Source: a virus. Taken from it: DNA of 64,000 nucleotides. The position numbers and the translations under genes were made by a program. The notes beneath the pieces were generated by a model. The model was not told where the DNA came from. It searched no databases and saw only the letters and a program-made list of their open reading frames with translations. This document shows, piece by piece, positions 17,150-56,380 of the stretch. Position 1 is the first letter of the stretch; each line of letters begins with the position of its first letter. The stretch is taken from IMG/VR virus record IMGVR_UViG_3300028883_000002; one strand, given 5' to 3'.

Positions 17150-17695
17150 ATGAAGCGGAATATTCTCATTGTTTGTTTGATTTGCCTCTGCGCTCTCGTT
17201 ATGATGGGTGCAGATAGTTGCAGCGGAGAAGGTGGCGACGAGTCGAAGAGCTTTATGGCAGAATCGCAGCACACGGAAGACAATCACGCAACGCTCGTTG
17301 CGGCTGTTCCTGCGCCACTTCTCGATACTTCTCTTGAGCGCGTTCAACTTAAGAAGAGGTTGATTCGTTTCAACGACGAGAACAAGATTAGTTACATCTA
17401 CCTGATTGACCGTGGCGTTATAATGGCACATTACGTTATCAAGGGCAAGGTTTCCAGCGTTAATAGTAAGCTCACAACGCAGGAAAAGATTGTTGACGAC
17501 CCTTGGCGTTATCGTTCAGGCGGAAAGGTTGTAGAGAGTCCTGCTTTGGATGGTTCATACGGAACAAACGGGGATGCTGTCTTCTTCTACTTGGCAGAAA
17601 ATGACGCTTACGTTGAGTGGAACGGAACGTATCTCCTGTTTGACCAGCCGATGAGAATGACTACGCAGCCCATTCTCGTCCAGACTGTAAACTAG
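17150..17695 (+). CDS. secreted or lipoprotein-like hypothetical protein
   Basis: Signal-peptide-like N-terminus MKRNILIVCLICLCALVMMGADSC. Confidence 0.65.
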   Translation: MKRNILIVCLICLCALVMMGADSCSGEGGDESKSFMAESQHTEDNHATLVAAVPAPLLDTSLERVQLKKRLIRFNDENKISYIYLIDRGVIMAHYVIKGKVSSVNSKLTTQEKIVDDPWRYRSGGKVVESPALDGSYGTNGDAVFFYLAENDAYVEWNGTYLLFDQPMRMTTQPILVQTVN

Positions 17696-17810
17696 AAAAT
17701 TCCGGGGAAGGGAGAGGGAGTTGATAAAGGAACGGGGGCCTTTTCTTCTCCTTCTCCCACCGGATGTGAAAGGTGGTGAACGTAACGAAAGCATTTAACA
17801 GGATTCTCAG

Positions 17811-17833
17811 AAAACCCAGAGGTATTTTCTAAA
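17811..17833 (+). promoter_or_regulatory. conserved leader/promoter motif, copy 4
   Basis: AAAACCCAGAGGTATTTTCTAAA before ATG 17834, which opens only a 25-codon ORF. Confidence 0.45.
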
Positions 17834-17898
17834 ATGACTGTTGCATCAGTCAGTAATTCCGTTTCTGTCAGATTGAAAATTAAATCTGGGAGGATAGA

Positions 17899-18048
17899 AT
17901 GGCTTATATAAAGCCGCTTCCAACAGTTAATGAAATCTACCACGCAGTTGAAAAGCTAGGAGATGAAAAGGTAGAAACGATTCAGAAGCTATGTGAGGGA
18001 GTTCTTGCACGGAGGAAAATGAAAAAAGAAGAGGAACAAAGTAAATGA
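17899..18048 (+). CDS. hypothetical protein, 49 aa
   Basis: Read by eye: GGGAGG RBS, ATGA overlap with the next gene. Contains repeat copy 1. Confidence 0.5.
   Translation: MAYIKPLPTVNEIYHAVEKLGDEKVETIQKLCEGVLARRKMKKEEEQSK
17912..17995 (+). repeat. 84-nt perfect direct repeat, copy 1
   Basis: Identical to 18333-18416 (offset 421 nt). Confidence 0.9.
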
Positions 18049-18380
18049 CAATTGGAGAAATGATTGAGAAAGAACGGAAAGACAACTTTCTTAATCCTCT
18101 AACGGAAACCGAGTGGAGATTTCTTGAGCATCTTTTAAGGAAGGCTTTACTATTCGATAGAGAATATAAGCAAGAAGACTTCGCTGACGTTCTCGCAGCT
18201 TTGAGAGAAGTTGTCGAAGAGTGTATTACATGGGAAGTTCCTCAAACTGACGGGGAGGGTTCATTCACAAAAGACACGGCACTCGGAAGAGCTTGGTTAA
18301 TTCTCGACAGATACCATGTTAATCTACCACCCAGCCGCTTCCAACAGTTAATGAAATCTACCACGCAGTTGAAAAGCTAG
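18045..18380 (+). CDS. hypothetical protein (3' end runs into repeat copy 2 in a different frame)
   Basis: ORF track. Confidence 0.6.
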   Translation: MTIGEMIEKERKDNFLNPLTETEWRFLEHLLRKALLFDREYKQEDFADVLAALREVVEECITWEVPQTDGEGSFTKDTALGRAWLILDRYHVNLPPSRFQQLMKSTTQLKS

Positions 18381-18416
18381 GAGATGAAAAGGTAGAAACG
18401 ATTCAGAAGCTATGTG
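18333..18416 (+). repeat. 84-nt perfect direct repeat, copy 2
   Basis: Identical to 17912-17995. Confidence 0.9.
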
Positions 18417-18440
18417 TTGGGATGTTGCTGACAAATAAAC

Positions 18441-18517
18441 GGGCCGATATGCCAATTGGTTAGGCGACCTGTCTCATAAACAGGCGGTTGAGGGTTCGAG
18501 TCCCTCTCGGCCCACCA
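18441..18517 (+). tRNA. tRNA-Met/Ile2(CAU), elongator-type, CCA encoded
   Basis: Acceptor GGGCCGA/TCGGCCC, anticodon arm CCTGT-CTCATAA-ACAGG, T-arm GAGGG-TTCGAGT-CCCTC, then ACCA. Confidence 0.85.
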
Positions 18518-18534
18518 GAAAGGAAAAAGAAAAG

Positions 18535-18879
18535 ATGCACAGTCCAACACCGTGGAAACTTAGCGGAGCAGAACCTGACCCAACACCAGACGTAACCGAT
18601 GCAGACGGTGTTCTAATTCTCGCGTGGGATGTTGCTCCATCGTTAGATGATACAGAACATATCGTCAATTGCGTAAATGCGTGTGCAGAAAAAGGACCGA
18701 TTCGCAATCTACTTGACTTAATCCCAACAGAGTTAGAATTGATGTACGATTCTGAACACGGAACGGATGGAAAGTATTGTGGTGACGGAATAACTACTGA
18801 ACTATGTCGTTATTGCACGCTAAAGAATGCTTACGAAGCTGCTATGGCTGCTCTCAATAAGGAGCATAAAGATGGTTAA
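18535..18879 (+). CDS. hypothetical protein
   Basis: ORF track. Confidence 0.6.
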   Translation: MHSPTPWKLSGAEPDPTPDVTDADGVLILAWDVAPSLDDTEHIVNCVNACAEKGPIRNLLDLIPTELELMYDSEHGTDGKYCGDGITTELCRYCTLKNAYEAAMAALNKEHKDG

Positions 18880-19063
18880 GGTTCCGCAAGAAATATACGA
18901 TGGTCTAGAACAAATCAGAAGTTCCTGTGAAATCAATATGTTCGACAGGTCTGGAGTTCAGGCAATAGCTAACAGAGAGGAAATGTACGCGCTCGTAACG
19001 TGGATTGAGGACCACAAAGACGAGTACGTTGATGGTATCTTCAGCGGATTCGAAGCCGAATAG
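18872..19063 (+). CDS. DUF5049-like small protein
   Basis: The pattern VPQEIYDGLEQIRSSCEINMFD recurs at the N-terminus of 44527-44925 (paralog). AAGGAG RBS. Confidence 0.55.
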   Translation: MVKVPQEIYDGLEQIRSSCEINMFDRSGVQAIANREEMYALVTWIEDHKDEYVDGIFSGFEAE

Positions 19064-19071
19064 GAGTTAAT

Positions 19072-19458
19072 ATGGAAATCCTGTTAGGCCATTTGTTTGG
19101 CGACTATATGTTTCAGTCTAAACCGATGGCTCTACAGAAATCTAAGAAAGGAATCAAAGGGTTCGGTTGGTGTCTACTTCACAGTCTTCTATACACCTTC
19201 GGAATCTATGTTTTCTTTCGCGACAAACCGTGGTACATTTACGTTACAATTGCGGTTACTCATTTCCTGATTGATAGATACAGATACGGACTCAAATGGC
19301 TGTATCTAATAAATGGGAGGGACTATACGAAACTACCAGAAATGGGGATATGGTACGAAACGGAAATCACATTCAACTGTCTTGTATATACCGTCGTTGA
19401 CAATACTCTCCATCTGCTAGTTTTGTGGTGGCTATTGGCTCAACCATTAGCGGGATAA
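19072..19458 (+). CDS. DUF3307-like membrane protein
   Basis: HLFGDYMFQS start motif and several hydrophobic helices. Confidence 0.6.
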   Translation: MEILLGHLFGDYMFQSKPMALQKSKKGIKGFGWCLLHSLLYTFGIYVFFRDKPWYIYVTIAVTHFLIDRYRYGLKWLYLINGRDYTKLPEMGIWYETEITFNCLVYTVVDNTLHLLVLWWLLAQPLAG

Positions 19459-19460
19459 AT

Positions 19461-19736
19461 ATGTCAGAATGGACAAAAGAAATACCAATGATGAAGTGTG
19501 GACATACTGCTAACGGCAAGAATGAAAAGAAAGAACCAATCTGTGTTATGTGTACGCTGGCAGGAAAGCCAGAAGGAGAAGAGTTAGCAGAAGAAACTCC
19601 TGACCTTACTGGCAGAATTGCTAGATGCAAAACGTGCGGCAAAGAAACAAAATCGTCAACGGCTCTTCCATTCTTTGAACATAGACCCGGCAGAGAGAAA
19701 GACGGATACTATTGTGGTTGCTTTGGATGGGATTAA
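19461..19736 (+). CDS. Cys-rich hypothetical protein
   Basis: ORF track 19425-19736 trimmed to ATG 19461. Confidence 0.55.
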   Translation: MSEWTKEIPMMKCGHTANGKNEKKEPICVMCTLAGKPEGEELAEETPDLTGRIARCKTCGKETKSSTALPFFEHRPGREKDGYYCGCFGWD

Positions 19737-19759
19737 GAGTTAGATTATAGGGAGAAGAC

Positions 19760-20032
19760 ATGGCTAAGTGTGGGCATTGTTGCCAAGAAATGTTAGAAGC
19801 AGATTCTTGTATAAAAGTTCCAGTTACTATTTCTCCTAGCGAGAATTATGACCCAATACCTTTTGGCACAGCAAGTATGGGCTATACAGACGGCAAAGCA
19901 GATGAATTAACGGACAGATGCCCAGATTGCAATGTTGCGGTTGGCGGATATCACCATCCCGGTTGTGATTGGGAAGTCTGCCCGAAATGTAACGGACAAT
20001 TAATAAGCTGCGGGTGCATAGAACAAACATAA
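19760..20032 (+). CDS. Cys-rich hypothetical protein
   Basis: ORF track; GGGAGAAG RBS. Confidence 0.55.
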   Translation: MAKCGHCCQEMLEADSCIKVPVTISPSENYDPIPFGTASMGYTDGKADELTDRCPDCNVAVGGYHHPGCDWEVCPKCNGQLISCGCIEQT

Positions 20033-20037
20033 AACAT

Positions 20038-20115
20038 GGGGTGCTAGAGTAATATGGTCAACTCGTCGGCCTTTCAAGCCGGAGATTACGGGTTCGATTC
20101 CCGTGCACCCTACCA
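20038..20115 (+). tRNA. tRNA-Glu(UUC), CCA encoded
   Basis: D-arm GAGT/ACTC, anticodon loop CTTTCAA, T-arm ACGGG-TTCGATT-CCCGT, then ACCA. Confidence 0.8.
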
Positions 20116-22743: not shown

Positions 22744-22959
22744 TAGGGGTGTAAAAAACCCCACGACAAACACTACTAACCTAAATAACCCAACATGGCT
22801 AGTGATGCAAGAGGAAAATGAAGCTAAGCGGAAAAATGTTGTTGGCTGACCAAGGGGCGAAAATAGGACTTGCATGGGGTTGGGCCTCTGACTAGGTTGT
22901 ACCTATGAGGGGTCGGCCTGTGTACCTAGGCCACCTAAGTGGTAACGGGGCAAGGTGTT

Positions 22960-23886
22960 ATGGCTAAAGGGAAAAAGTTTCCTAATACGCTTTCTGAATT
23001 TGTTGGTCAAGAAAATGTTGTAAAGCAATTGGCGGTTTCGATTCTGGCGAGTCATAAGAGCGGACATATATTACCACATATCCTGTTCACCGGACCAGCG
23101 GGTTTAGGAAAAACGACTCTGGCAGAATGTATTGCGCGAACTATCGAAGCACCAATCAAGTACGCAACAGGTGGAACAATTCGAAACCTGAATGACGTAA
23201 ACGAACTGATAGATTGGGTAAACTTAAGGGTTGGCGGAATACTTTTTATAGATGAGATTCATGCGCTACCTTCAAAGATTGAAGAGATATTCTTTCCGAT
23301 TATGCAGGACTTCAACTTCGAAGGGGATTCAGTAAACGAGTTTACATTATTAGGTGGCACAACAAACGCAGGAGATTTGAGTAAACCTCTGAGAGATAGG
23401 TTTGTCTATACATTCCAGTTGGACCATTACTCAGAGGAAGCAATCAAAATCATCCTTGCAAAGAACTGGCAGATTACACCTGAAGCAGCACATAAGTTAG
23501 CTATACGAAGTCATGGCATTCCTAGAATTGCAAAAAACTATTTGCAGATGTGCCGTGACCAAGCTATTATAGAGGATAGACACAGAGTAGAACTAAGCGA
23601 CGTAACATCTGTAATGGACCGACTTGAAATTGATGAAGAAGGATTGGGTCCGCTTGAGAGAGAGATACTTCTAATTCTATTCGAAGCACCAAAGGCAGTT
23701 GGGTTAGAGGTAATCGCATTGGCTCTCGATACAGAACCAGTAAACTTGAAACAGATACATGAACGAATCCTCTTACAAAAAGGTTACTTAGTCAGAGTGA
23801 GAAGTGGAAGAACCATTACGAAAAGAGGATTAAGGTACTTGATAGAGAAAGACCTAGTAGATTTTGAAACGGGATGCCGTAAGTGA
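22960..23886 (+). CDS. ruvB: RuvB-like AAA+ Holliday-junction helicase
   Basis: FVGQE...GPAGLGKTTLA...LFIDEIH...FTLLGGTTNAG...PLRDRF...SHGIPRIAKNYL, collinear with RuvB. Confidence 0.85.
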   Translation: MAKGKKFPNTLSEFVGQENVVKQLAVSILASHKSGHILPHILFTGPAGLGKTTLAECIARTIEAPIKYATGGTIRNLNDVNELIDWVNLRVGGILFIDEIHALPSKIEEIFFPIMQDFNFEGDSVNEFTLLGGTTNAGDLSKPLRDRFVYTFQLDHYSEEAIKIILAKNWQITPEAAHKLAIRSHGIPRIAKNYLQMCRDQAIIEDRHRVELSDVTSVMDRLEIDEEGLGPLEREILLILFEAPKAVGLEVIALALDTEPVNLKQIHERILLQKGYLVRVRSGRTITKRGLRYLIEKDLVDFETGCRK

Positions 23887-23944
23887 GGATTTCTTCGTCT
23901 ATCCTTAATGACTCCTTGAAGCCTTGCTGATTGTTGCTCTCGTT
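23868..23944 (+). ncRNA. Y-RNA-like module Y1 (compact; 5' strand overlaps the last ruvB-like codons)
   Basis: Closing helix AACGGGA/TCTCGTT, 5' loop TGCCGTA, helix AGTGAGGA/GCCTTGCT, 3' loop GATTGTTGC. Confidence 0.55.
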
Positions 23945-23955
23945 CTAAATGTATG

Positions 23956-24120
23956 GACCGGATGTCGTAGATGAGAGATACTTCGGATAAAACGCTCCCG
24001 AAGTTTAGGGGAAAAGTGGGTTCGACTTCCCGCTCTCCGCTCCAGAATCAGAAGTAATAAGCGGAGATAGTTTACGGTTGGCCTTCGGGCCTGTGCCTCT
24101 TATCGCCAATTACTCTGGTC
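23956..24120 (+). ncRNA. Y-RNA-like module Y2 with T-arm-like element
   Basis: Closing helix GACCGG/CTGGTC, 5' loop ATGTCGTA, helix GATGAGAG/CTCTTATC, internal GTGGGTTCGACTTCCCGC. Confidence 0.6.
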
Positions 24121-24131
24121 ACTATATAAAA

Positions 24132-24208
24132 GGATGGTGTCGTAGGGTAGAGTTACTTCTATAGAAAACACCTATAACAAAGGCCTCTACCCGCCTGTTA
24201 CCCATTCC
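24132..24208 (+). ncRNA. Y-RNA-like module Y3 (compact)
   Basis: GGATGG/CCATTCC, TGTCGTA vs GCCTGTTA, GGGTAGAG/CTCTACCC. Confidence 0.65.
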
Positions 24209-24241
24209 TCTAAAAAGAGGAAAAGGAAAGGGGAAAAGAAG

Positions 24242-25819
24242 ATGGCAAGATACGCGCAGAAGACTACAGGTACAAACAAGAGAGTGAATAAGGAAGGCGC
24301 AATCGCGTATGCAATGACTCCTGAAATGGAACTGTATACGCTCGTTTGCACTTCTACTCTCAAGGACAAGTTCTATACAAAGGCAGATGAAGATGTACAG
24401 AGAATTCGCAAGCTTGTTAGAAAGGTAAATCCTTTGCTTGTTGCTAAGCTTGCGGTGTACGCAAGAACACAGATGTATCTAAGAACGATTCCTTTGGTTC
24501 TTGCGGTTGAGCTTGCTAAGGTTCACTCTGAAAACATTCAGAAGGGAAAGAAGTTAGATTACCCCGCCGATATCGTTTCAAGAATGATTGCAAGTGTCAT
24601 AAGACGCGCTGATGAAATTCCAGAGCTTTTGGGGTACTACGCGCTTGCAAACGGAAGAAAGGGAACGAAGCAGCTTGGTAAGCTTTCGAAGCAAGTTCAA
24701 AAGGGATTGGGAATTTCGTTCAACAGATTCGATGAGTACGGATTTGGAAAGTACAATCGTGATACCGTGCCGTCAATGAGGGACGCATTGTTCCTTGTTC
24801 ACCCAAGACCTAAGAATGACGAGCAGCAAGCTTTGTTCCAGAAGATTGTAGACGACAATCTGGAAACTCCATACACTTGGGAGGTTGAGCTTTCAGAAGT
24901 TGGACAGGGAAAGTTTGATTCTCCTGAGGAAAAGGAAGCGGCAAAGCGCGACAAGTGGGAAGAGCTAATTGATAGCGGTAAGATTGGATATATGGCTCTG
25001 TTGAGAAATCTCAGAAACTTCCTTGACATTGGTGTATCTAATGACCATATTGATAAGGTAGCAGAGATTCTCTCAGACCCAGAACGCGTAGCAAAGTCAA
25101 AGCAGCTTCCGTTCAGATTCTATACTGCGTACAAGATGCTCAAGGACAATGCAAATCCGAATGTTGGAATCTTCCTTGACGCACTTAATACGGCAATCTG
25201 GGAATCTGTAAAGAATATTGATTGTGTGGATGAGAACGATACAGTTATGATTGCAGTTGATAAGTCAAGCTCAATGACCGGACGTTTAACTCCTTCAATG
25301 ATGTACTGTGAAGTTGGACTGTTGCTAGCTGTAATTCTCAGAAAGAAGGTTAAGAGAGTTACGCTTGGATTCTTCGGTTCCGACTTTGTTGTTTCACAGA
25401 TGCCAAAGACCGAAAACGTACTTGACGCTGTAGACAGGCTGAGCAAACAGCTTGGTGGTGGAGCAACAGAAGGTTGGCTTGTTCCCAAGTACGTTAGAGA
25501 AAATCCGAAATATGGATATAACAAGATTTTCATGTTCACCGATATGCAGTTGTGGAGCGTTGATAACAAGATAGGTTTAGGTTACGGATGGGGTTACGAT
25601 TCAAAGCTTCCCGGTGAATGGACTAAGTGCAAGGAAACCTTCGATGGAATTCAGTTGTATCTGATTGACCTTGCAGGATATGGAGATTCTCCGGTTGATA
25701 TCATGAGCAACAAGAGCGTTCTGATGGTAGCGGGATGGAGCGATAAGATTTTTAAGATGATTGGTCAGCTTTCTCGCGGCGGAACTGTTCTTAAAGAACT
25801 AGAAAAGATTGAAGTGTAG
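24242..25819 (+). CDS. rsr: Ro60/Rsr-like TROVE-domain protein with C-terminal vWA (MIDAS DxSxS)
   Basis: N-terminal ...NKEGAIAYAM...FY...LAVYARTQMYLRTIPL (TROVE pattern) and VDKSSSM MIDAS motif in the C-terminal third. Confidence 0.85.
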   Translation: MARYAQKTTGTNKRVNKEGAIAYAMTPEMELYTLVCTSTLKDKFYTKADEDVQRIRKLVRKVNPLLVAKLAVYARTQMYLRTIPLVLAVELAKVHSENIQKGKKLDYPADIVSRMIASVIRRADEIPELLGYYALANGRKGTKQLGKLSKQVQKGLGISFNRFDEYGFGKYNRDTVPSMRDALFLVHPRPKNDEQQALFQKIVDDNLETPYTWEVELSEVGQGKFDSPEEKEAAKRDKWEELIDSGKIGYMALLRNLRNFLDIGVSNDHIDKVAEILSDPERVAKSKQLPFRFYTAYKMLKDNANPNVGIFLDALNTAIWESVKNIDCVDENDTVMIAVDKSSSMTGRLTPSMMYCEVGLLLAVILRKKVKRVTLGFFGSDFVVSQMPKTENVLDAVDRLSKQLGGGATEGWLVPKYVRENPKYGYNKIFMFTDMQLWSVDNKIGLGYGWGYDSKLPGEWTKCKETFDGIQLYLIDLAGYGDSPVDIMSNKSVLMVAGWSDKIFKMIGQLSRGGTVLKELEKIEV

Positions 25820-25875
25820 CACGGTAACCAGATAACCAGAATGTATCATCGTTGCTGAGTTATCTGTAAGCCAAT

Positions 25876-25960
25876 AGCAGGGGGAGCAAAACTACACCCC
25901 CCTTTCTTGGGCCAGAAAAAGGAACGGTAACTCGGCCTATGCTCCCCTTGCTTGTTTTTG
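25876..25960 (+). terminator. long hairpin followed by TTGTTTTTG (possible rsr terminator or another structured RNA)
   Basis: AGCAGGGGGAGCA at 25876-25888 pairs with TGCTCCCCTTGCT at 25940-25952. Confidence 0.3.
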
Positions 25961-26039
25961 AAAATGTGTGCGGTTAAGTCAAGCACCCTTTGTGGTGTGT
26001 AGCTTAGTAAGTGGAGCTAGCCCCACCGCACCCCAGAAC

Positions 26040-26115
26040 GGGCCGTTAGAGCCTATTTGTTTGTTGCCTTTTAGTGCCGTAAAATAGGATTTCTTCTTCA
26101 GCGAGAGCACGGCCC
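26040..26115 (+). ncRNA. Y-RNA-like module Y4 (permuted: conserved loop strands joined by a hairpin loop)
   Basis: GGGCCGT/ACGGCCC outer helix. CCTATTT-GTTTGTTGCC-TTTTA-GTGCCGTA-AAATAGG. Confidence 0.5.
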
Positions 26116-26122
26116 ACCAATT

Positions 26123-26218
26123 TGATAAGTGCCGTTAGTGATGGGTTACTTCGTGGCTAAACGAAATGGTTGTGCTAGCCGAAATTAGCACTCTCCCGTT
26201 GCGTTTGTTGCCTTATCA
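26123..26218 (+). ncRNA. Y-RNA-like module Y5
   Basis: TGATAAG/CTTATCA, TGCCGTTA vs GTTTGTTGC, GTGATGGG/CCCGTTGC, apical GTGCTA-GCCGAAAT-TAGCAC. Confidence 0.65.
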
Positions 26219-26224
26219 TTAGGT

Positions 26225-26294
26225 TCTGAGTGCCGTAGTTTTGGGTTACTTCACCGAAAATGAAACCATAACCCAATACGCTTATTGCCTCAGA
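26225..26294 (+). ncRNA. Y-RNA-like module Y6 (compact)
   Basis: TCTGAG/CTCAGA, TGCCGTA vs GCTTATTGC, GTTTTGGG/CCCAATAC. Confidence 0.6.
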
Positions 26295-26335
26295 TTAAAA
26301 GTCTCTCTTGCTAATGTATAAATGACAATGGAATA

Positions 26336-26481
26336 TTCCGATGCCGTAGGATAGAGATACTTCAACCGGAACTGGAGATTACAGGTTCGAATCCTGCTGA
26401 CTCCTTAAAGCCGAAAGGCTTGGAGTGTGGTCGAAAGGTAAGACGCCAGTATAGAAAACTCTGTTCGCTTGTTGCTCGGAA
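26336..26481 (+). ncRNA. Y-RNA-like module Y7 with tRNA-like domain (YrlA-type)
   Basis: TTCCGA/TCGGAA, TGCCGTA vs GCTTGTTGC, GGATAGAG/CTCTGTTC. T-arm CAGG-TTCGAAT-CCTG, acceptor-like hairpin closed by GAAA, D-arm-like GTGGTCGAAAGGTAAGAC. Confidence 0.65.
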
Positions 26482-26496
26482 GCAACCTGACATATG

Positions 26497-26629
26497 AATA
26501 GGTGTCGTAGAGAAGAGTTACTTCGACTTGTAATCGAGTGGTTTTTGGTTCGAATCCAAACTGGAGCTTCGGCTCCTGTAGCTCAACTGGATAGAGCACT
26601 TACGTTCTCTTTTCGCCTGTTACCCTATT
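26497..26629 (+). ncRNA. Y-RNA-like module Y8 with tRNA-like domain (YrlA-type)
   Basis: AATAGG/CCTATT, TGTCGTA vs GCCTGTTAC, GAGAAGAG/CTCTTTTC. TTTGG-TTCGAAT-CCAAA, GGAGC-TTCG-GCTCC, GTAGCTCAACTGGATAGAGCAC. Confidence 0.7.
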
Positions 26630-26648
26630 CACTATTTGAAATGTTAAG

Positions 26649-26818
26649 AGCCAGATGTCGTTAGTGAAGAGTTACTTCGCTTATGACTATTAATCATGGG
26701 ATGCGGGTTCGAATCCCGTCGAGCGCACCATGCGCGCTCGTAGCTCAACGGTAGAGTATTGCAAATGGTTGCATCAGCCGAAATTGATGCGTCTCTCTTT
26801 ACGCCTGTTACTCTGGCT
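26649..26818 (+). ncRNA. Y-RNA-like module Y9 with tRNA-like domain retaining ACCA in the acceptor loop
   Basis: AGCCAGA/TCTGGCT, TGTCGTTA vs GCCTGTTAC, GTGAAGAG/CTCTTTAC. GCGGG-TTCGAAT-CCCGT, CGAGCGC-ACCATGC-GCGCTCG, TAGCTCAACGGTAGAGT. GCATCA-GCCGAAAT-TGATGC. Confidence 0.7.
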
Positions 26819-26859
26819 TTTAACATTTCTTGCCCCTAGAATAAGGAAGGAGAACAAAT

Positions 26860-27042
26860 ATGCTAGGGGAGATTCTTTTAATGGGCCTTGTTGATTCCCT
26901 TCTGGAATTACAGCTGGGTGAAGATAAGACTATACGTTTGGAATTCAAAACGAGAGAGGAGAAAATGTCGTGTCAGAAGGAACCGAAAAGAACGAGCAAG
27001 ATGTCCAGAAGAGAATTGATGCGCTTGAAGCGAGAATCGTAG
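26860..27042 (+). CDS. hypothetical protein (3' part overlaps the next gene)
   Basis: Strong AAGGAAGGAG RBS. It overlaps 26970-27293 by 73 nt. Confidence 0.4.
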   Translation: MLGEILLMGLVDSLLELQLGEDKTIRLEFKTREEKMSCQKEPKRTSKMSRRELMRLKRES

Positions 27043-27293
27043 ATTTAGAAGAAGCATTAGATTTAAGCGCGCATGTCGAAGTGATACAAGAGCTTAATAT
27101 GGCAGTTGAAGTTGTCTCAGAATTACTAGACATGACAAAGGAACTGGCTGAAGCGTTCGTAAGTACAATGGCAGATACATCGGATAACATGAAGGAAGAA
27201 TTCAAGCTATTAGAAAAGATGGCTGGAGTCAGGAAGGAGCTTGATAAGTATGTCAGACCAGAAGTTGAACGCGAAGAAGGAAGAGATTCGTAG
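26970..27293 (+). CDS. coiled-coil hypothetical protein
   Basis: GTG start 8 nt after GAGGAG; acidic heptad-like sequence. Confidence 0.55.
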   Translation: MSEGTEKNEQDVQKRIDALEARIVDLEEALDLSAHVEVIQELNMAVEVVSELLDMTKELAEAFVSTMADTSDNMKEEFKLLEKMAGVRKELDKYVRPEVEREEGRDS

Positions 27294-28179
27294 ACATTAT
27301 GAGTTAATGTTCGAAGCAGTCAAAAAGGATATACCTGAGCAGTATCAGCAGTTCCTTGTTCCACTAGAAAGAAACGTGAAGTTCAAGTGGTATGGCGAAG
27401 AAGAATGGGTAAACAACCTTAAGACTTTGTATTTTACAGTCGCTGGTCGTTTACAGATGGCGGTTGATGAACATGAACCGAACTCGTTCTACCTAACCAA
27501 CTTTACGAATACGTCAGATGAATCGCAAGTAATCAACACTAAAATTCCTGCTTGGGCAATGCCTGTTGTTAAGGATACGCCAAGCGAAGCTATTACGCAT
27601 ACTGTAATAGTCCCACCTAGGTCAACAGTAGCATTATTTGCCTCTCCCCTTAGAGGTATTTTTGATGGTATTGCGGGGATTGACCCGAAGAAACTAAGCA
27701 CAGAAACAGAGAATAAGTTTGGTCTTGAAGACGCAGAAACGTCTGCATTGGGACGCGCACTTGGTAAGGCTGGATATGGAATTGTCTGTTCTGGATTTGC
27801 TTCAGCAGATGAAATGGTTAGATATCTAGCTACTGGCGCAGAGGACCAAACTATTCAAGCTCAGAAGAATCCGCCAGCAGTTGAAAGAGGCTCTTCAGAA
27901 AAGAAGAAGGATGAAAAGAAGTATGAGTTTGAAAGAAGCACAATGAAAAAGGTCACAGGTCTTGAAAGGTATTCTGAAGACCAATTAAAGGAAATGGCAA
28001 AGAAAGACCTGAGCACAGCAGTTAAGAATTTGAGAACTGCGATGGGCCTTAGTGCTGAACACATGAAGGGAATCATCTACAATATAGCTGGCGAGAAAGT
28101 TGACATGCGTAGCGTTACTTCGGAGATTCTTGTTGCTGCTTACATTGACCTTGCAAAGCTTGCCGATTGGGATGGCTAG
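27250..28179 (+). CDS. hypothetical protein, possible Rad52/Sak-like single-strand annealing protein (weak)
   Basis: AETSALGRALGKAGYG resembles the conserved helix-hairpin motif of Rad52-type SSAPs. Sits upstream of the helicase. Confidence 0.6.
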   Translation: MSDQKLNAKKEEIRRHYELMFEAVKKDIPEQYQQFLVPLERNVKFKWYGEEEWVNNLKTLYFTVAGRLQMAVDEHEPNSFYLTNFTNTSDESQVINTKIPAWAMPVVKDTPSEAITHTVIVPPRSTVALFASPLRGIFDGIAGIDPKKLSTETENKFGLEDAETSALGRALGKAGYGIVCSGFASADEMVRYLATGAEDQTIQAQKNPPAVERGSSEKKKDEKKYEFERSTMKKVTGLERYSEDQLKEMAKKDLSTAVKNLRTAMGLSAEHMKGIIYNIAGEKVDMRSVTSEILVAAYIDLAKLADWDG

Positions 28180-37453: not shown

Positions 37454-40237
37454 ATGGCAAATACCAGAAAGAAAGTATCGGAGTATGTGGATGATACCGG
37501 ATGGAGGGCAAAAGAGAACGCCAATACGAGAAAATCAGTTTCAGGTCTCTACTCATTCGTTGCACATTCCGTCTTTGCGGAAGAGAACATGGAATCCATT
37601 CCGCATGGAGAAGAACATAGAGTTGGAGCATTGTATGCCCATGATTTAGGGTATCCAATCCAGACGGTGTATTGCGTAGGACACGACCTTTATGAGATTT
37701 TGACAAGAGGAATAATGACGGCTGGCGGGACGAGAAGTAAACCAGCTAAGCATATGGACACAGCAGTTGACCACATGGTTAATTTTCTGTGTATGGCACA
37801 GAACGAATGCGCTGGTGCTCAATCGTTTAGCAATGTGTCAACCCTTCTTGCTCCGTTTGTTAGAGCGGACAGGATGAATTATCAGCAGATTAAACAAACG
37901 GTTCAAAGAATGATATTCTCTCTTAACTATGAGAACCGAATCGCATTTCAGCAGAGCTTTACAAACTTCACTCTGGACCTAAAGCCAGCGGAAGTTTTCA
38001 AAGATGTAGAAGTTAGAGTTGGCGGTGAACCGCAGGGATATACTTACAAAGAATTGGGGAGAGAAGTTGAACTAGTTAACATGGCATTCCTAGAGGTTTA
38101 TATGGAAGGAGATTCAGAAGGAAAGCCATTCTCGTTTCCTATCCCGACAGTACAGGTTACCGATTACTCGCTCTTTGAAAAAACTGAATTCAACGACATG
38201 TTCTGGAAATTAGTTGCAAAGTTTGGAACTCCTTACTTTGCTAATTTCATAGGAACAGAACTAGACCCGAAAGCTACAAGGTCAATGTGCTGTGTAACGC
38301 CAGATACCAAGCTGTTTGTGCAAACCGCAAAAGGCAATACTGTTCAGACAGCCAAATATATATGGGATACGCACGGCAACGATAAATCAAATGGTTTTTT
38401 ATTATTCCATAACGGAAAGTGGAATAAAGCCAACATAGCAAGAGTAGAGGATGATGGTTACTTTGAAATAACGCTGTCAAACAATCACAAAATAAAGCTT
38501 ACGAAAACCCATGCGTGTAAAATATGGGATGATGAACTTGGAGAACAATTGGTTCCAGCACAACATGTTATTCCAAAACGACACTATATTCCCGTTAACA
38601 CAACAGCAATAAAAGGTAGTGTTCTAGGAGATTACAAACTTGGATATTTTATTGGAGTGTACGCTGGCGATGGGTGCGTATGCAACGACAATAACATAAC
38701 GATATCTCTAAACTCAGACCAAATGGATATAGCTAGAGAGCTTGTTGTTTTTGCGGAAAATAGATTTGGCTCGATTTGTACAACAGAAATAAGAGATAAT
38801 GTATTGTTCGTAAGGATTTTCGACAAAGCTCTTGTGGCATTTCTGAATAAATACATAGACACCAGCCTGCATGCTATAGATAAAACATTTACTGGAAAAG
38901 TTATTATGGCTAGCGAAGATTTTAGAAGGGGTGTTTATGCTGGAATGATGGATGCCGATGGAGCTATAGGCAATGTTAGTAAAAACAGATACTACTCTGC
39001 ATCAGAAAAACTCATAGAAGATTTTGTTGCTATCTGCACTTCTCTTGGTCTTGTTACATATCTTGAAAAACCCGATACAAGAGAAAGTAGATTAGGAACA
39101 AATCCGACATACTGTGCAAGAATATATTCTGGAAGACCGGGATATGCCACAGCATTCTTTACTGATGAGTTTGGAACCAAGTGGTATTCCGTTAAGAGCA
39201 TTGATTGGATTGCTAAGCCGGGAGTGTTCTTTGATTTTGAAGTAGATTCAGAAGAGCATTTATTTACACTCGCTAATGGAATCATTACTCATAATTGCCG
39301 CTTGAATTTAAATGCTAAAGATGCAGAACAACCACACGGACTCTGGGCTATTGGTTCTAAGACAGGTTCTCTGGCTGTCTCTACTATCAACCTGAATCGT
39401 TTGGGTATCATAGCAAACGATGAGGAAGAGTTCTTCAAACTCCTTAAAGATAAGATGGACCAAGCTAGGGAACAGTTGAAATATAGAAGGAACAGAATTG
39501 AAGAGGGTAGAGTCAAGCACAAGCTGCTTCCTATTTTCTCAGAATACATCGGAACCGAGAGAACCTTCTTCCTGACTGTTGGAATATGCGGTATGCATGA
39601 GTGTTGCATGAATTTGTTTGGCAAACCTATTTCTCAATGCGAAGATTTTGTCCTCAGGGTACTAGACAGAATGAAGAAGACCTTGAGAAAATGGGGCAAA
39701 GAAGATGGTTACCTATACAACTTTGAACAAACACCAGCAGAAACCGCTAGTTATAAAATGGCTAAAGAGGATATAAGACTATTCCCAGAGGCATTTGTTA
39801 GTACGGGAACGAATGGCGTTCCGTTCTTGACTAACTCAACCCATGAACCAATGTATAACGGAAGAACGCTACAAGAAAGATTAGAATGGGCAAGCAAAAC
39901 AGACAGCTTTTATACTGGTGGAACCATCTTGCATATCTGGTTACACGAAAAGCCGAATATAGCTTCGGTAAAGACTTTGGTTCGCGCAACGCTAGGGTAC
40001 AATATTCCTTACTTCACAATTACCCCAACTGTTACCCATTGTGGAGATTGCGGAAAGATATCATATGGACCGAGAGATAAGTGTCCGCATTGTGGCTCAT
40101 TAAACGTCGAAAGCCTAACTAGAGTCGTAGGATATTATGCGCCTATGTCTCGATTCAACAAAGGGCAGCATGAACAACATGGCGTGAAAGTAGCGTTTGA
40201 TAATCAGGTGGATGAGGTTATAATGAAAGGGGAATAA
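37454..40237 (+). CDS. nrdD: anaerobic (class III) ribonucleoside-triphosphate reductase, interrupted by an intein
   Basis: Extein junction RSMC|CRLNL restores the NrdD CCRL motif. C-terminal CGDCG...CPHCG Zn site and RVVGYYA glycyl-radical motif. Confidence 0.9.
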   Translation: MANTRKKVSEYVDDTGWRAKENANTRKSVSGLYSFVAHSVFAEENMESIPHGEEHRVGALYAHDLGYPIQTVYCVGHDLYEILTRGIMTAGGTRSKPAKHMDTAVDHMVNFLCMAQNECAGAQSFSNVSTLLAPFVRADRMNYQQIKQTVQRMIFSLNYENRIAFQQSFTNFTLDLKPAEVFKDVEVRVGGEPQGYTYKELGREVELVNMAFLEVYMEGDSEGKPFSFPIPTVQVTDYSLFEKTEFNDMFWKLVAKFGTPYFANFIGTELDPKATRSMCCVTPDTKLFVQTAKGNTVQTAKYIWDTHGNDKSNGFLLFHNGKWNKANIARVEDDGYFEITLSNNHKIKLTKTHACKIWDDELGEQLVPAQHVIPKRHYIPVNTTAIKGSVLGDYKLGYFIGVYAGDGCVCNDNNITISLNSDQMDIARELVVFAENRFGSICTTEIRDNVLFVRIFDKALVAFLNKYIDTSLHAIDKTFTGKVIMASEDFRRGVYAGMMDADGAIGNVSKNRYYSASEKLIEDFVAICTSLGLVTYLEKPDTRESRLGTNPTYCARIYSGRPGYATAFFTDEFGTKWYSVKSIDWIAKPGVFFDFEVDSEEHLFTLANGIITHNCRLNLNAKDAEQPHGLWAIGSKTGSLAVSTINLNRLGIIANDEEEFFKLLKDKMDQAREQLKYRRNRIEEGRVKHKLLPIFSEYIGTERTFFLTVGICGMHECCMNLFGKPISQCEDFVLRVLDRMKKTLRKWGKEDGYLYNFEQTPAETASYKMAKEDIRLFPEAFVSTGTNGVPFLTNSTHEPMYNGRTLQERLEWASKTDSFYTGGTILHIWLHEKPNIASVKTLVRATLGYNIPYFTITPTVTHCGDCGKISYGPRDKCPHCGSLNVESLTRVVGYYAPMSRFNKGQHEQHGVKVAFDNQVDEVIMKGE
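38291..39295 (+). mobile_element. intein (335 aa) with LAGLIDADG homing endonuclease
   Basis: Starts CVTPDTKL, ends ITHN followed by +1 Cys. LAGLIDADG blocks GYFIGVYAGDG and YAGMMDADG. Confidence 0.85.
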
Positions 40238-45111: not shown

Positions 45112-45115
45112 AAGG

Positions 45116-48969: not shown

Positions 48970-48978
48970 GAGGTTTCA

Positions 48979-56379: not shown

Positions 56380-56380
56380 A

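What the first reader, a model, noticed from the sequence alone, without database searches (positions are those of the whole stretch)
23868..26818. Ro60/TROVE-vWA gene embedded in nine Y-RNA-like modules with covarying helices
The Ro60-like CDS (24242-25819) is flanked by nine copies of one RNA architecture. Three are upstream (23868-23944, 23956-24120, 24132-24208). Six are downstream (26040-26115, 26123-26218, 26225-26294, 26336-26481, 26497-26629, 26649-26818). Each module has four parts. (i) A closing helix differs in sequence in every copy but stays complementary: AACGGGA/TCTCGTT, GACCGG/CTGGTC, GGATGG/CCATTCC, TGATAAG/CTTATCA, TCTGAG/CTCAGA, TTCCGA/TCGGAA, AATAGG/CCTATT, AGCCAGA/TCTGGCT. 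(ii) A conserved asymmetric internal loop has 5' strand TG(T/C)CGT(T)A and 3' strand G(C/T/A)(C/T)T(G/A)TT(A/G)C. (iii) An 8-bp helix again covaries: GGGTAGAG/CTCTACCC, GAGAAGAG/CTCTTTTC, GTGAAGAG/CTCTTTAC, GGATAGAG/CTCTGTTC, GATGAGAG/CTCTTATC, AGTGAGGA/GCCTTGCT, GTGATGGG/CCCGTTGC. (iv) Then comes T(T/A)ACTTC or TTTCTTC and a variable apical part. It is established that bacterial Ro60 orthologs (Rsr) bind Y RNAs through a bulged helix, that such RNAs are usually encoded next to rsr in small numbers, and that some carry a tRNA-like domain (YrlA). What stands out here is the number of copies (nine), their placement on both sides of the gene with Y1 overlapping the ruvB-like stop, and the coexistence of compact, tRNA-like and permuted forms in one phage locus. 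I infer a phage RNP toolkit in which one Ro ring is programmed by a family of adaptor RNAs.
Basis: partly seen in the sequence, partly recalled or inferred. Interest (0 to 1): 0.85.

Follow-up and report, generated by a model that had tools for sequence, protein, structure and literature searches.

The report
Phage Ro60 gene with nine Y-RNAs
A large uncultivated phage carries a Ro60 RNA-binding protein gene flanked by nine small structured RNA genes of the Y-RNA type; such arrays prove common in this Ro60 lineage, and one copy belongs to an apparently undescribed form laid out like a tRNA.

Summary
A TROVE/Ro60 gene (24242-25819) is flanked on its own strand by nine RNA modules: three upstream and six downstream.

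- **Shared core.** The order is closing helix, U-G-N-C-G-U-A(U)-R, an ~8-bp helix, then (A/U)UACUUC. The 3' strand is helix, G-Y-Y-U-G-U-U-N'-C, closing helix. Both helices covary strongly. N pairs with N' in all 16 standard copies from this phage and a relative.
- **Identity.** These are Y-RNA/YrlA-type partners of Ro60. The motif is a one-base variant of the published GNCGAAN0-1G. Two copies carry full T, acceptor-like and D arms. Rfam's YrlA model stays below threshold.
- **Copy number.** A phage with 63%-identical Ro60 has the same 3+6 layout. Nine is not unique: related Ro60 loci in Bacteroidota genomes carry a median of about 4 (up to 8), and one viral contig has at least 11.
- **The newer point.** "Permuted" Y4 has its Ro-binding stem capped by a loop. 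Its ends sit in a 7-bp acceptor-like stem followed by encoded ACCA. Full tRNA-shaped versions occur in five other viral contigs, and none in 80 bacterial loci.

Expression, processing and Ro60 binding are inferred, not shown. This is a new variant of a known kind.

The parts
22939..23886 (+). Upstream RuvB-like AAA+ ATPase CDS (context). Its last 19 nt overlap Y1.
   Evidence: Pfam RuvB_N 1.2e-35, AAA_lid_4 and RuvB_C. PHROGs calls it a clamp-loader-like protein. The same gene sits upstream of Ro60 in related phage L001.
23868..23944 (+). Y1: compact standard module. Closing helix AACGGGA/UCUCGUU, UGCCGUA, helix AGUGAGG/CCUUGCU, UUUCUUC.
   Evidence: Structural scan 13/14 pairs. R2 51.3 bits. 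MFE fold.
23956..24120 (+). Y2: long standard module (165 nt). Its apical domain has three hairpins, including a T-loop-like one at 24015-24034 (GUGGGUUCGACUUCCCGC).
   Evidence: Scan 14/14. R2 50.9 bits. Fold. Coordinates.
24131..24209 (+). Y3: compact standard module. It ends 32 nt before the Ro60 start codon.
   Evidence: Scan 14/14. R1 67 bits and R2 61.7 bits.
24242..25819 (+). Ro60/Rsr ortholog of 525 aa: a TROVE ring plus a vWA domain with a DxSxS MIDAS motif.
   Evidence: Pfam TROVE 1.4e-24. phrog_850 9e-50. About 48% identity over the full length to Bacteroidota TROVE proteins. Nearest solved structure is Thermus phage phiLo Ro60, 9KOP/9L5Y, E 2e-18. D340/S342/S344 are invariant in A1.
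26040..26119 (+). Y4: capped (tRNA-topology) module. The order is acceptor-like stem GGGCCGU, UAGAG, CCUAUUU, GUUUGUUGC, cap C-UUUUA-G, UGCCGUA, AAAUAGG, AUUUCUUC, 12 nt, ACGGCCC, ACCA.
   Evidence: Regex plus pairing. R3 55.2 bits. Capped-core covariation is 96% paired against 38-53% slid. ACCA lies at 26116-26119, and all five phage tRNA genes end in A-CCA. The ortholog in L001 has compensatory changes.
26123..26218 (+). Y5: medium standard module (UGCCGUUA variant). The apical hairpin has the loop GCCGAAAU (26178-26185).
   Evidence: Scan 14/14. R2 51.6 bits. Loop coordinates.
26224..26295 (+). Y6: compact standard module.
   Evidence: Scan 13/14. R1 67.4 bits and R2 59.9 bits.
26335..26482 (+). 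Y7: long standard module. It has a T arm (26381-26397, ACAGGUUCGAAUCCUGC), an extended acceptor-like stem-loop and a D-like segment.
   Evidence: Scan 14/14. R2 59.9 bits. Coordinates.
26496..26630 (+). Y8: complete YrlA-type module. It has an anticodon-like arm (26522-26538, loop CUUGUAA), T arm (26544-26560), closed acceptor-like stem (26563-26576, UUCG loop) and D arm (26579-26598).
   Evidence: R2 68.6 bits. Rfam YrlA 39 bits, E 2.5e-6, below the gathering score of 69. Partial tRNA hit of 22.5 bits. Coordinates.
26649..26818 (+). Y9: complete YrlA-type module. It has an anticodon-like arm (26682-26698), T arm (26703-26719), a 7-bp acceptor-like stem with the loop ACCAUGC (26720-26740), D arm (26741-26757) and an extra hairpin with the loop GCCGAAAU (26777-26784).
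   Evidence: Scan 14/14. R2 50.5 bits. Rfam YrlA 33.6 bits and tRNA 27.8 bits, both sub-threshold. Coordinates.

Best explanation
The region is a phage-borne Ro60 (Rsr) gene embedded in an array of nine genes for Y-RNA-family non-coding RNAs.

**Standard copies.** Eight have the usual Y RNA/YrlA topology. The 5' and 3' ends pair to form the stem that carries the Ro60-binding bulged helix. The variable 'effector' domain sits at the apex.

**Y4.** It has the opposite topology. The Ro-binding stem is closed by a small loop. The RNA ends lie in a 7-bp acceptor-like stem followed by ACCA, as in a tRNA.

**Proposed mechanism (inferred)**
- The array is co-transcribed with the flanking genes. Spacers are only 3-39 nt, too short for separate promoters for most copies.
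- The transcript is cut into small RNAs, at least partly by tRNA-processing enzymes.
- Each RNA docks on the outer face of the Ro60 ring through the constant motif.
- The differing apical domains gate the ring or tether it to different partners. Candidates are host exoribonucleases such as PNPase and tRNA-binding enzymes.

**Shown here:** the anatomy, the covariation, the link to Ro60 genes across many loci, and the tRNA-like elements.

**Inferred:** transcription, processing, Ro60 binding and partner recruitment.

The confidence of 0.8 is for 'an array of Ro60-partner Y-RNA genes'. The specific adaptor-toolkit mechanism deserves about 0.4.
For: **The protein**
- It is a full-length Ro60: TROVE, vWA/MIDAS, and the nearest solved structure is a phage Ro60.

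**The core is a conserved structure, not a sequence repeat**
- Helices differ in every copy but stay complementary.
- 18 of 19 pairs show double changes across 65 modules from 26 sources. 90% of cells pair, against 38-55% in slid controls. That alignment is model-fitted. The independent MAFFT alignment gives 89%.

**The module tracks Ro60**
- 199 of 200 hits in 73 sources (the window, L001 and 71 viral contigs) lie on the Ro60 strand. So do all 300 listed of the 367 hits in bacterial loci.
- My scanner finds 493 hits on the Ro60 strand against 37 on the opposite strand.
- In the 64-kb window the models hit nothing outside this locus.

**Match to the published Ro60-binding motif**
- The 5' strand GNCGUA(N0-1)R corresponds to the published GNCGAAN0-1G (PMC4201824). 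Relatives in the same model family carry the canonical GGCGAAG (L052).

**tRNA-like domains**
- Y8 and Y9 have T arm, acceptor-like stem and D arm in YrlA order. They give the only Rfam YrlA hits.

**Conservation and context**
- A phage whose Ro60 is 63% identical keeps the 3-upstream, 6-downstream layout, including the capped copy in the same position.
- In other viral contigs the modules alternate with genuine tRNA genes (L072, L005). This supports tRNA-type processing.
- The phage encodes a tRNA nucleotidyltransferase. All its tRNA genes end in ACCA.

**Precedents**
- Thermus phage phiLo Ro60 binds two phage Y-like RNAs and host PNPase (PMC12135203).
- M. smegmatis YrlA is cut by RNase P and receives CCA (PMC4201824).
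Against: - There are no expression, end-mapping or binding data.
- Rfam's YrlA model does not reach its gathering score for any copy. It scores 39 and 33.6 bits against 69, and gives nothing for the other seven.
- The motif differs from the published consensus at one position in all nine copies.
- Five of the nine copies lack any clear tRNA-like domain. 'YrlA' fits only part of the array.
- No promoter or convincing terminator was found in the region by the sigma-70 scan, so the transcription units are guesswork.
- The Listeria phage P100 region, homologous to the one reported as highly transcribed next to an Rsr-like gene, has no match to this model. That transcriptome therefore cannot be borrowed as support.
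Confidence: 0.8

Rival explanations
1. The modules act in cis. They are Ro60-binding sites in the 5' and 3' untranslated parts of the ro60 message. They let the protein regulate its own mRNA's stability or translation, and they are not released as free small RNAs.
For: Three modules lie directly between the upstream gene and the Ro60 start, the last ending 32 nt before the ATG. Six follow the stop codon. Spacers are too short for separate promoters, and no promoter-like site was found inside the array.
Against: - In other loci the same modules sit only on one side of the gene, up to about 4 kb away. They also alternate with tRNA genes that must be excised.
- Y4 carries an acceptor-like stem with ACCA, and Y9 has a 7-bp acceptor-like stem with ACCA in its loop. 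These are features of processed RNAs.
- In every bacterium studied so far, co-transcribed Y RNAs are released and bound as small RNAs (PMC4201824).
Confidence: 0.07
2. The RNAs work mainly as tRNA mimics or decoys, independently of the phage Ro60. For example, they could soak up host tRNA-cleaving defence nucleases, host Rsr or tRNA-modifying enzymes. Linkage to the Ro60 gene would then be a legacy of their origin.
For: Four to five copies contain T-arm or D-arm elements. Y8 and Y9 carry 7-nt anticodon-like loops. Y4 mimics an acceptor stem almost identical to that of the phage tRNA-Met(CAU). The phage also invests in five tRNAs and a CCA-adding enzyme.
Against: The only element invariant in all nine copies, and across about 150 other loci, is the Ro60-type bulged stem, not the tRNA-like part. 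Four copies (Y1, Y3, Y5, Y6) have no tRNA-like domain. The strict association with Ro60 genes argues that Ro60 is the common partner.
Confidence: 0.08
3. The array is non-functional repeated DNA. It would be tRNA-derived debris or a small mobile repeat that has amplified locally.
For: The copies are tandem, some contain tRNA fragments, and copy number varies between loci.
Against: Copies share almost no sequence in the helices yet keep pairing, which recent amplification cannot produce. The layout is conserved between phages whose Ro60 proteins are only 63% identical. Nothing similar occurs elsewhere in the 64-kb window.
Confidence: 0.02

Closest known systems
YrlA (Y RNA-like A; Rfam RF02553) of Salmonella Typhimurium, Mycobacterium smegmatis and mycobacteriophages (Chen et al. 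2014, PMC4201824; Wang et al. 2018, bioRxiv 10.1101/312249)
   Same: It is encoded beside, and on the strand of, a Ro60 ortholog. The stem is formed by the RNA ends and carries a GNCG(A/U)A motif on the 5' strand. In Y8 and Y9 the apical domain has T arm, closed acceptor-like stem and D arm in the same order. Y9's 7-bp acceptor-like stem resembles that of M. smegmatis YrlA, which RNase P cleaves.
   Different: The motif is GNCGUA rather than GNCGAA. The 3' strand (GYYUGUUN'C) and a following UUACUUC are also conserved here. In the published YrlAs only the 5' strand is recognisable. Rfam scores are well below threshold. Most copies lack the tRNA-like domain. There are nine per locus rather than one or two.
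Deinococcus radiodurans Yrn1/Yrn2 and metazoan Y RNAs
   Same: The design is modular: a constant bulged Ro60-binding helix with both strands conserved, plus a variable loop or effector part. The compact copies Y1, Y3 and Y6 (70-79 nt) resemble these more than they resemble YrlA. Several different Y RNAs serve one Ro60.
   Different: There is no sequence homology outside the short motif. Vertebrates have two to four dispersed or clustered genes with their own promoters, not a tight tandem array around the protein gene.
Thermus phage phiLo Ro60 with Yrl1 and Yrl2 (PMC12135203; PDB 9KOP, 9L5Y)
   Same: It is a phage-encoded Ro60, and the nearest solved structure to this protein. Phage-encoded Y-like RNAs lie next to the gene. 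Binding of the RNAs and of host PNPase was shown in vitro.
   Different: It has two RNAs, both upstream, identified by a CGAA motif. No array, tRNA-like domains or capped form are described.
RNase P-cleaved, CCA-tailed M. smegmatis YrlA, and circularly permuted tRNA genes of red algae and archaea
   Same: They show that a Y RNA can carry an open acceptor stem with a CCA end. They also show that tRNA and its circular permutation can interconvert. Y4 and its tRNA-shaped relatives are the one-piece, genome-encoded counterpart.
   Different: In M. smegmatis the open acceptor stem arises after transcription, and the RNA becomes two pieces. Here the gene order itself is tRNA-like and the Ro stem is closed by a loop. 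I found no description of that form in the library I could search.

Membership tests
Y RNA / YrlA-like RNAs (Chen et al. 2014; Rfam RF02553) | Encoded within about 4 kb of a Ro60/TROVE gene and on the same strand | tested here: met
   All nine lie within 1 kb of the TROVE CDS on the + strand.
Y RNA / YrlA-like RNAs (Chen et al. 2014; Rfam RF02553) | Long stem formed by pairing of the 5' and 3' ends and containing the Ro60-binding helix | tested here: met
   Met for eight of nine, with strong covariation. Y4 has the same helix, but it is closed by a loop instead of being formed by the ends.
Y RNA / YrlA-like RNAs (Chen et al. 2014; Rfam RF02553) | 5'-strand motif GNCGAAN0-1G | tested here: not met
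   All nine have GYCGUA(U)0-1R, with U instead of the first A. Members of the same covariance-model family elsewhere carry GGCGAAG or GGCGGAG (L052, L009). This is therefore a continuous variant, not an unrelated motif.
Y RNA / YrlA-like RNAs (Chen et al. 2014; Rfam RF02553) | tRNA-like effector domain with T arm, closed acceptor-like stem and D arm | tested here: inconclusive
   Present in Y8 and Y9. Y7 has a T arm only, and Y2 a T-loop-like hairpin. Absent in Y1, Y3, Y5 and Y6. Y4 has only the acceptor-like stem.
Y RNA / YrlA-like RNAs (Chen et al. 2014; Rfam RF02553) | Score at or above Rfam's gathering threshold (69 bits) | tested here: not met
   No hit at gathering. Y8 scores 39 bits and Y9 33.6 bits in E-value mode.
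Y RNA / YrlA-like RNAs (Chen et al. 2014; Rfam RF02553) | Exists as a discrete small RNA physically bound by Ro60 | not testable with these tools
   This needs RNA sequencing, northern blots and co-purification or gel-shift assays.
Ro60 / Rsr protein | TROVE (HEAT-repeat ring) domain followed by a vWA domain with a MIDAS motif, at full length | tested here: met
   Pfam TROVE 1.4e-24. Alignment over residues 10-511 to phage Ro60 structures 9KOP/9L5Y. DxSxS at D340/S342/S344 is invariant among 22 homologs.
tRNA (considered for Y4) | 7-bp acceptor stem followed by a discriminator base and CCA | tested here: met
   GGGCCGU/ACGGCCC followed by A-CCA (26109-26119). All five tRNA genes of the window also end in A-CCA.
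tRNA (considered for Y4) | D arm, anticodon arm and T arm; recognised by ARAGORN or the Rfam tRNA model | tested here: not met
   There is no tRNA call in the region. Y4 has no D or T arm. Its relative in L006 does score 47.4 bits as a full-length tRNA, with a 68-nt insert in place of the anticodon arm.

The most novel reading that the evidence does not exclude
The capped copies form a distinct class of 'tRNA-topology Y RNAs'. This covers Y4 here and the full tRNA-shaped versions in other viral contigs. They are genes in normal tRNA order whose anticodon arm has been replaced by a Ro60-binding stem.

They would mature like tRNAs, with RNase P cutting the 5' end and a CCA 3' end kept up by the phage's own CCA-adding enzyme. 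They might be recognised, or even charged, by tRNA-handling enzymes, and so couple the Ro60 ring to tRNA or translation machinery during infection.

They would also be the missing intermediate for the proposal that YrlA-type Y RNAs arose from tRNAs by circular permutation.
Probability: 0.2. Interest if true: 0.8.

Novelty: new variant of a known kind. Interest (0 to 1): 0.6.

Why it matters
- **Array size.** In a large Ro60 lineage (Bacteroidota-type genomes and many phages), Ro60 comes with arrays of 4 to 11 or more different partner RNAs that current Rfam models miss. The published cases have far fewer: at least two Y RNAs each in the three bacteria studied, and two in Thermus phage phiLo. 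This supports the idea that one Ro ring is specialised by interchangeable RNAs. It also gives many natural variants for finding what the apical domains bind.
- **Origin of Y RNAs.** The tRNA-topology forms link Y RNAs to tRNAs in gene order, not only in fold. The hypothesis that YrlA derives from tRNA becomes directly testable. So does the question of whether such RNAs are processed, CCA-tailed or charged.
- **Annotation.** The covariance models built here explain long 'empty' intergenic stretches beside Ro60 genes in phage and bacterial genomes.
- **Phage biology.** The locus points to deliberate remodelling of RNA surveillance during infection, but that remains unproven.

Tried and rejected
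- **Rfam at gathering thresholds.** Nothing in the region.
- **Megablast to 50,697 phage records.** No match.
- **Close-relative scan of IMG/VR with the protein alone.** None found. An alignment-based scan was needed instead.
- **Loose 5'-half regular expression for counting copies.** The background was too high, at 261 hits on the wrong strand. I replaced it with covariance models and a pairing-aware scanner.
- **Exact-pattern scan of IMG/VR for capped modules.** It returned 47 stretches. Almost all lacked helix complementarity, so the scan was uninformative.
- **Pairing-aware regex for capped forms.** Many false positives arose where purine-rich helices met U-rich spacers. The 'capped' hit in bacterial locus L157 is the junction of two tandem standard modules. 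Model R3 separates true capped cores (46-49 nt, 39-62 bits) from such junctions (55 nt or more, 38 bits or less), with one weaker hit (L044 1523-1573, 31 bits) that fits neither group.
- **A possible degenerate tenth module at about 25870-25960.** Not supported by R2 with filters off.
- **A remnant of the 113-aa ORF that L001 carries after Ro60.** None in the window.
- **Listeria phage P100.** The tRNA/Rsr-like region, homologous to the highly transcribed regions reported for phage CKA15 (PMC12282133), has no hit to R2 with filters off. That transcriptome cannot be used as support.
- **L003 and L004.** They are identical to the window across 22939-27300, so they add no variation.
- **Supplementary tables of Chen et al. 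2014.** Not held, so per-phage YrlA counts could not be read. The 2020 Annual Review was also not held.

Full report
**1. The observation**

The region 23868-26818 holds a 525-aa ORF (24242-25819, + strand). It is a TROVE protein (Pfam E 1.4e-24; phrog_850 'RNA-binding protein' E 9e-50). It is about 48% identical over its full length to TROVE/Ro60 proteins of Bacteroidota. Its nearest solved structure is the Ro60 of Thermus phage phiLo (9KOP/9L5Y, E 2e-18, residues 10-511). The DxSxS MIDAS motif of the vWA domain is present and invariant among 22 homologs (D340, S342, S344).

- The 5'-strand motif TGYCGTWR occurs 23 times in the window, against 10.5 +/- 3.0 in shuffles. Nine of the 23 lie in this 3-kb stretch.
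- My own scan of all 64 kb required the motif, a complementary 8-nt helix and a complementary 6-nt closing helix. It returned exactly the eight standard modules at 13-14 of 14 pairs, plus one weak chance hit.
- Each module folds on its own into closing helix, asymmetric internal loop and ~8-bp helix.

The only corrections are that a few pairs are G-U or mismatched, and that Y4 should run to 26119.

**2. The core is a conserved structure**

The MFE folds and the alignments give the same picture:

- a closing helix;
- a bulged U;
- two pairs, G-C and N-N';
- a UU bulge on the 3' strand;
- pairs C-G and G.U;
- a small internal loop (UA opposite GYY);
- the ~8-bp helix;
- the near-invariant single-stranded (A/U)UACUUC.

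I aligned 16 standard modules, eight from the window and eight from a related phage, with MAFFT (alignment A2). Long apical parts were trimmed. No structural information was used.

- 89% of cells form standard pairs, against 41-53% when 3' partners are slid by 1-3 columns.
- 14 of 19 pairs show changes on both sides.
- No shuffle of 500 reaches the observed covariation score.
- The N/N' pair is C-G in eight copies and U-A in eight.

A covariance model from this alignment (R1) hits only this locus in the window. A second model (R2) was built from 65 modules in 26 sources (A3).

- R2 recovers all eight standard copies at 50-69 bits and nothing else in the window.
- On A3, 90% of cells pair against 38-55% slid, and 18 of 19 pairs show double changes.
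- N/N' takes all four Watson-Crick combinations: GC 27, CG 18, UA 14, AU 4.
- A3 is fitted to the model and so leans towards the structure. A2 is not fitted and gives the same answer.

**3. A related phage keeps the whole layout**

The exact protein occurs on contigs up to 122 kb. The two copies I fetched (L003, L004) are identical across the region.

A protein 63% identical (P0002) lies on contigs L001 and L002. The synteny is the same: RuvB-like, Ro60, DnaB-like, SpoVG-like, Pol III alpha, PD-(D/E)XK.

L001 again has three modules between the RuvB-like gene and Ro60 and six after Ro60. The first downstream module is again the permuted one. Helix sequences differ between the two phages, but the pairing is kept.

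Two details are not conserved. L001 has a 113-aa ORF between Ro60 and the downstream array, where the window has 220 nt of non-coding sequence. The overlap of Y1 with the upstream stop codon is also absent from L001.

**4. What the modules are**

The 5' strand G-N-C-G-U-A-(N0-1)-R is a one-base variant of GNCGAAN0-1G. Chen et al. defined that motif for the Ro60-binding stem of bacterial YrlA RNAs (PMC4201824). Other loci in the same model family carry the canonical GGCGAAG (L052) or GGCGGAG (L009).

Y8 and Y9 contain, in YrlA order, a T arm (GGUUCGAAUCC), a closed acceptor-like stem and a D arm (GUAGCUCAA..GGUAGAG). A stem-loop with a 7-nt anticodon-like loop precedes these arms. They give the only Rfam YrlA matches (39 and 33.6 bits; E 2.5e-6 and 9e-5), well below the gathering score of 69 (coordinates).

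The other copies are as follows.

| Copy | Apical domain |
|---|---|
| Y7 | T arm and an extended acceptor-like stem |
| Y2 | T-loop-like hairpin |
| Y1, Y3, Y6 | Compact (70-79 nt), more like Yrn1 or metazoan Y RNAs |
| Y5 | Two hairpins |

Y5 and Y9 share an identical 8-nt hairpin loop, GCCGAAAU.

Y9's acceptor-like stem has seven pairs and the loop ACCAUGC. This recalls M. smegmatis YrlA, the one YrlA known to be cut by RNase P and then to receive CCA (PMC4201824).

The modules are therefore Y-RNA-family RNAs of a subfamily that current Rfam models do not capture.

**5. How unusual is nine?**

I fetched 80 viral contigs (IMG/VR) and 80 bacterial loci, almost all Bacteroidota. All encode relatives of this Ro60, and each locus had up to 4 kb on either side.

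R2 finds 200 hits in 73 sources (the window, L001 and 71 of the viral contigs). 199 of them are on the Ro60 strand. The larger arrays are:

| Locus | Hits |
|---|---|
| L065 | at least 11 (cut by the contig end) |
| L072, L005 | 8 each |
| L068, L066 | 7 each |
| L035, L048, L026, L050 | 6 each |

In the bacterial loci R2 finds 367 hits, about 4.6 per locus, with up to 8 in L204 and L196.

An independent pairing-aware scanner gives 493 hits on the Ro60 strand and 37 on the other. Per-locus counts have a median of 4 and a maximum of 8 in bacteria. In viral contigs the median is 1-2 and the maximum 8. The window has 8 standard copies.

Multi-copy arrays are therefore the rule in this lineage. 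With eight standard and one capped copy, this phage sits at the top of the range but is not an outlier.

The papers I could search describe far fewer. Two Y RNAs each are characterised in S. Typhimurium and M. smegmatis, and at least two in D. radiodurans. Thermus phage phiLo has two (PMC12135203). The 2014 survey reported 355 YrlAs for 276 genomes (PMC4201824). I found no description of such arrays. This is an absence in a limited library, not proof.

**6. The permuted copy has tRNA topology**

In Y4 the order is reversed. The 3' strand of the helix (CCUAUUU) comes first, then GUUUGUUGC, a 7-nt cap, UGCCGUA, the 5' strand (AAAUAGG) and AUUUCUUC. The Ro-binding stem is thus closed by a loop.

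The whole element is enclosed by a 7-bp helix, GGGCCGU/ACGGCCC, immediately followed by ACCA (26116-26119). All five tRNA genes of this phage end in A-CCA. The acceptor stem of its tRNA-Met(CAU) is GGGCCGA/UCGGCCC. The L001 ortholog has (C)GGGCCGA/UCGGCCC(G) followed by ACCA, and its inner helix CCUUAGUU/GACUAGGG shows compensatory changes.

The same capped core sits inside complete tRNA-shaped RNAs in other viral contigs, in place of the anticodon arm.

- L006 5643-5769 scores 47.4 bits with the Rfam tRNA model (gathering score 29). The match is full length, with a 68-nt insert where the anticodon stem-loop should be.
- L030, L035, L034 (two copies) and L044 are built the same way. The cap is often CC-UUCG-GG.
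- Across five capped cores, 96% of cells pair against 38-53% slid. Eight of 11 pairs show double changes.

A model of the capped core (R3) finds compact hits of 39-62 bits in the window, L001, L006, L030, L035, L034 and L044. A weaker second hit in L044 (1523-1573, 31 bits) coincides with the core of the second tRNA-shaped RNA there. The remaining lower hits are longer junctions between neighbouring standard modules. In the 80 bacterial loci the best hit is 38 bits, and those hits are of the junction type.

Capped forms therefore appear in seven of 73 sources in the viral set and in none of 80 bacterial loci. The caveat is that the bacterial sample covers only the closest Ro60 clade.

[quoted passage not shown] The forms found here are the un-permuted counterpart, encoded as such. 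Y4 and its L001 ortholog are minimal versions: an acceptor-like stem plus a Ro stem, with no D or T arm.

**7. Likely mechanism**

The following is shown:

- a Ro60 gene;
- nine structured RNAs sharing one covarying bulged stem that matches the Ro60-binding motif;
- variable apical domains, several of them tRNA-like;
- tight packing, with spacers of 3-39 nt;
- conservation of the layout in a second phage;
- interleaving of such modules with genuine tRNA genes in other viral contigs (L072: tRNA, module, tRNA, module and so on);
- a phage tRNA nucleotidyltransferase at 8272-9675 (phrog_2244, E 5e-72).

The following is inferred. It rests on established Y-RNA biology: Y RNA acts as tether and gate, Rsr-Y RNA-PNPase forms a complex, and M. 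smegmatis YrlA is processed by RNase P and receives CCA (PMC4201824). It also rests on phiLo Ro60 binding phage Y-like RNAs and host PNPase (PMC12135203).

- The array is transcribed with its neighbours.
- It is cut into small RNAs, partly by tRNA-processing enzymes.
- Each RNA binds the phage Ro60 through the common stem.
- The different apices specialise or regulate the ring.

I put about 0.8 on 'Ro60-partner Y-RNA array'. I put about 0.4 on the specific adaptor-toolkit reading. No promoter or clear terminator was detected.

**8. Rivals**

- Cis-acting autoregulatory sites in the ro60 message: about 0.07.
- tRNA-mimic decoys acting independently of Ro60: about 0.08.
- Non-functional repeats: about 0.02.

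The main arguments against them are the invariance of the Ro-type stem rather than of the tRNA-like parts, the processed-RNA features (ACCA), the covariation, and the strict association with Ro60 genes.

**9. Context**

The window looks like part of a large uncultivated phage.

- The source contig reaches 122 kb.
- It carries five tRNAs, DnaB-like helicase, primase, Pol III alpha, NrdD, an exonuclease and a tail-fibre-like protein.
- The nearest phage Pol III alpha homologs are human-gut phage contigs and Moorella phage MTATph1, at 33-36% identity.
- No isolate phage has a Ro60 closer than 32%.
- Strong Shine-Dalgarno sequences precede the genes (for example GGAAGGAG before 26860). From my own knowledge this hints at a host outside Bacteroidota, although the Ro60 itself is closest to Bacteroidota proteins. 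I did not resolve the host.

**10. Verdict**

The finding is real and correctly read as Ro60 with Y-RNA-like partners. Its headline feature, nine copies, is the high end of a widespread and apparently undescribed habit of this Ro60 lineage. Its most novel element is the tRNA-topology, CCA-ended form. I rate it a new variant of a known kind, with interest of about 0.6.

Noticed in passing
window 25968-26035: A second acceptor-like element lies just upstream of Y4. A 7-bp stem GUGCGGU/ACCGCAC is followed by C-CCA and encloses about 50 nt, including a D-arm-like UAGCUUAGUAAGUGGAGCUA. It has no Ro-binding motif. The fold is weak (z -1.3) and the element is absent from L001.
   Followed up: partly
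window 25820-25965: The non-coding stretch after the Ro60 stop folds unusually well (z -4.2). It has a hairpin at 25829-25866 and a 13-bp long-range helix GCAGGGGGAGCAA/UUGCUCCCCUUGC followed by a U-rich run. Its function is unknown. L001 has a 113-aa ORF at this position, with no remnant here.
   Followed up: partly
window 8272-9675: A phage-encoded tRNA nucleotidyltransferase (CCA-adding enzyme): PolyA_pol head domain and phrog_2244 at E 5e-72. It is relevant to the CCA-ended Y4 and to the phage's tRNAs.
   Followed up: partly
window 14695-20115: Five tRNA genes (Leu-UAA, Leu-CAA, Lys-UUU, Met-CAU, Glu-UUC) all encode A73 plus CCA. The tRNA-Met acceptor stem GGGCCGA/UCGGCCC is nearly identical to Y4's stem, and identical to that of Y4's ortholog in L001.
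   Followed up: partly
window 26178-26185 and 26777-26784: Y5 and Y9 share an identical 8-nt hairpin loop, GCCGAAAU, on different stems. It may be a common docking or tertiary-contact motif.
   Followed up: no
window 26522-26538 and 26682-26698; L001 about 8590-8610: The stem-loop between the Ro stem and the T arm of the YrlA-type copies has a 7-nt loop shaped like an anticodon loop, with U at position 2 and A at positions 6-7. The loops are CUUGUAA, CUAUUAA and, in L001, AUGAUAA. The Rfam tRNA model aligns it as the anticodon arm.
   Followed up: no
L072 970-3961; L005 5791-9256: In other viral contigs the Y-like modules alternate one-for-one with genuine tRNA genes in a single array next to Ro60.
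   Followed up: partly
L065 17-1892: One viral contig carries at least 11 tandem modules upstream of its Ro60 gene, truncated by the contig end. ARAGORN also calls three odd 'tRNAs' with 2-nt anticodons inside this array.
   Followed up: partly
window 37454-40237: The anaerobic ribonucleotide reductase (NrdD) gene carries a LAGLIDADG domain at residues 490-560. This suggests an intein or homing-endonuclease insertion.
   Followed up: no
window 45089-58824: A cluster unusual for a phage. It holds two glycosyltransferases, a cytidylyltransferase fused to PEP phosphomutase (56381-57736) and an iron alcohol dehydrogenase (57736-58824). This looks like a phosphonate-type modification pathway.
   Followed up: no
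L213 (Listeria phage P100) 38000-50000: The Rsr-like gene region of P100-like Listeria phages has no match to the module model. Three highly transcribed non-coding regions were reported there and proposed as Y RNAs (PMC12282133). If those are Y RNAs, they belong to another subfamily.
   Followed up: yes
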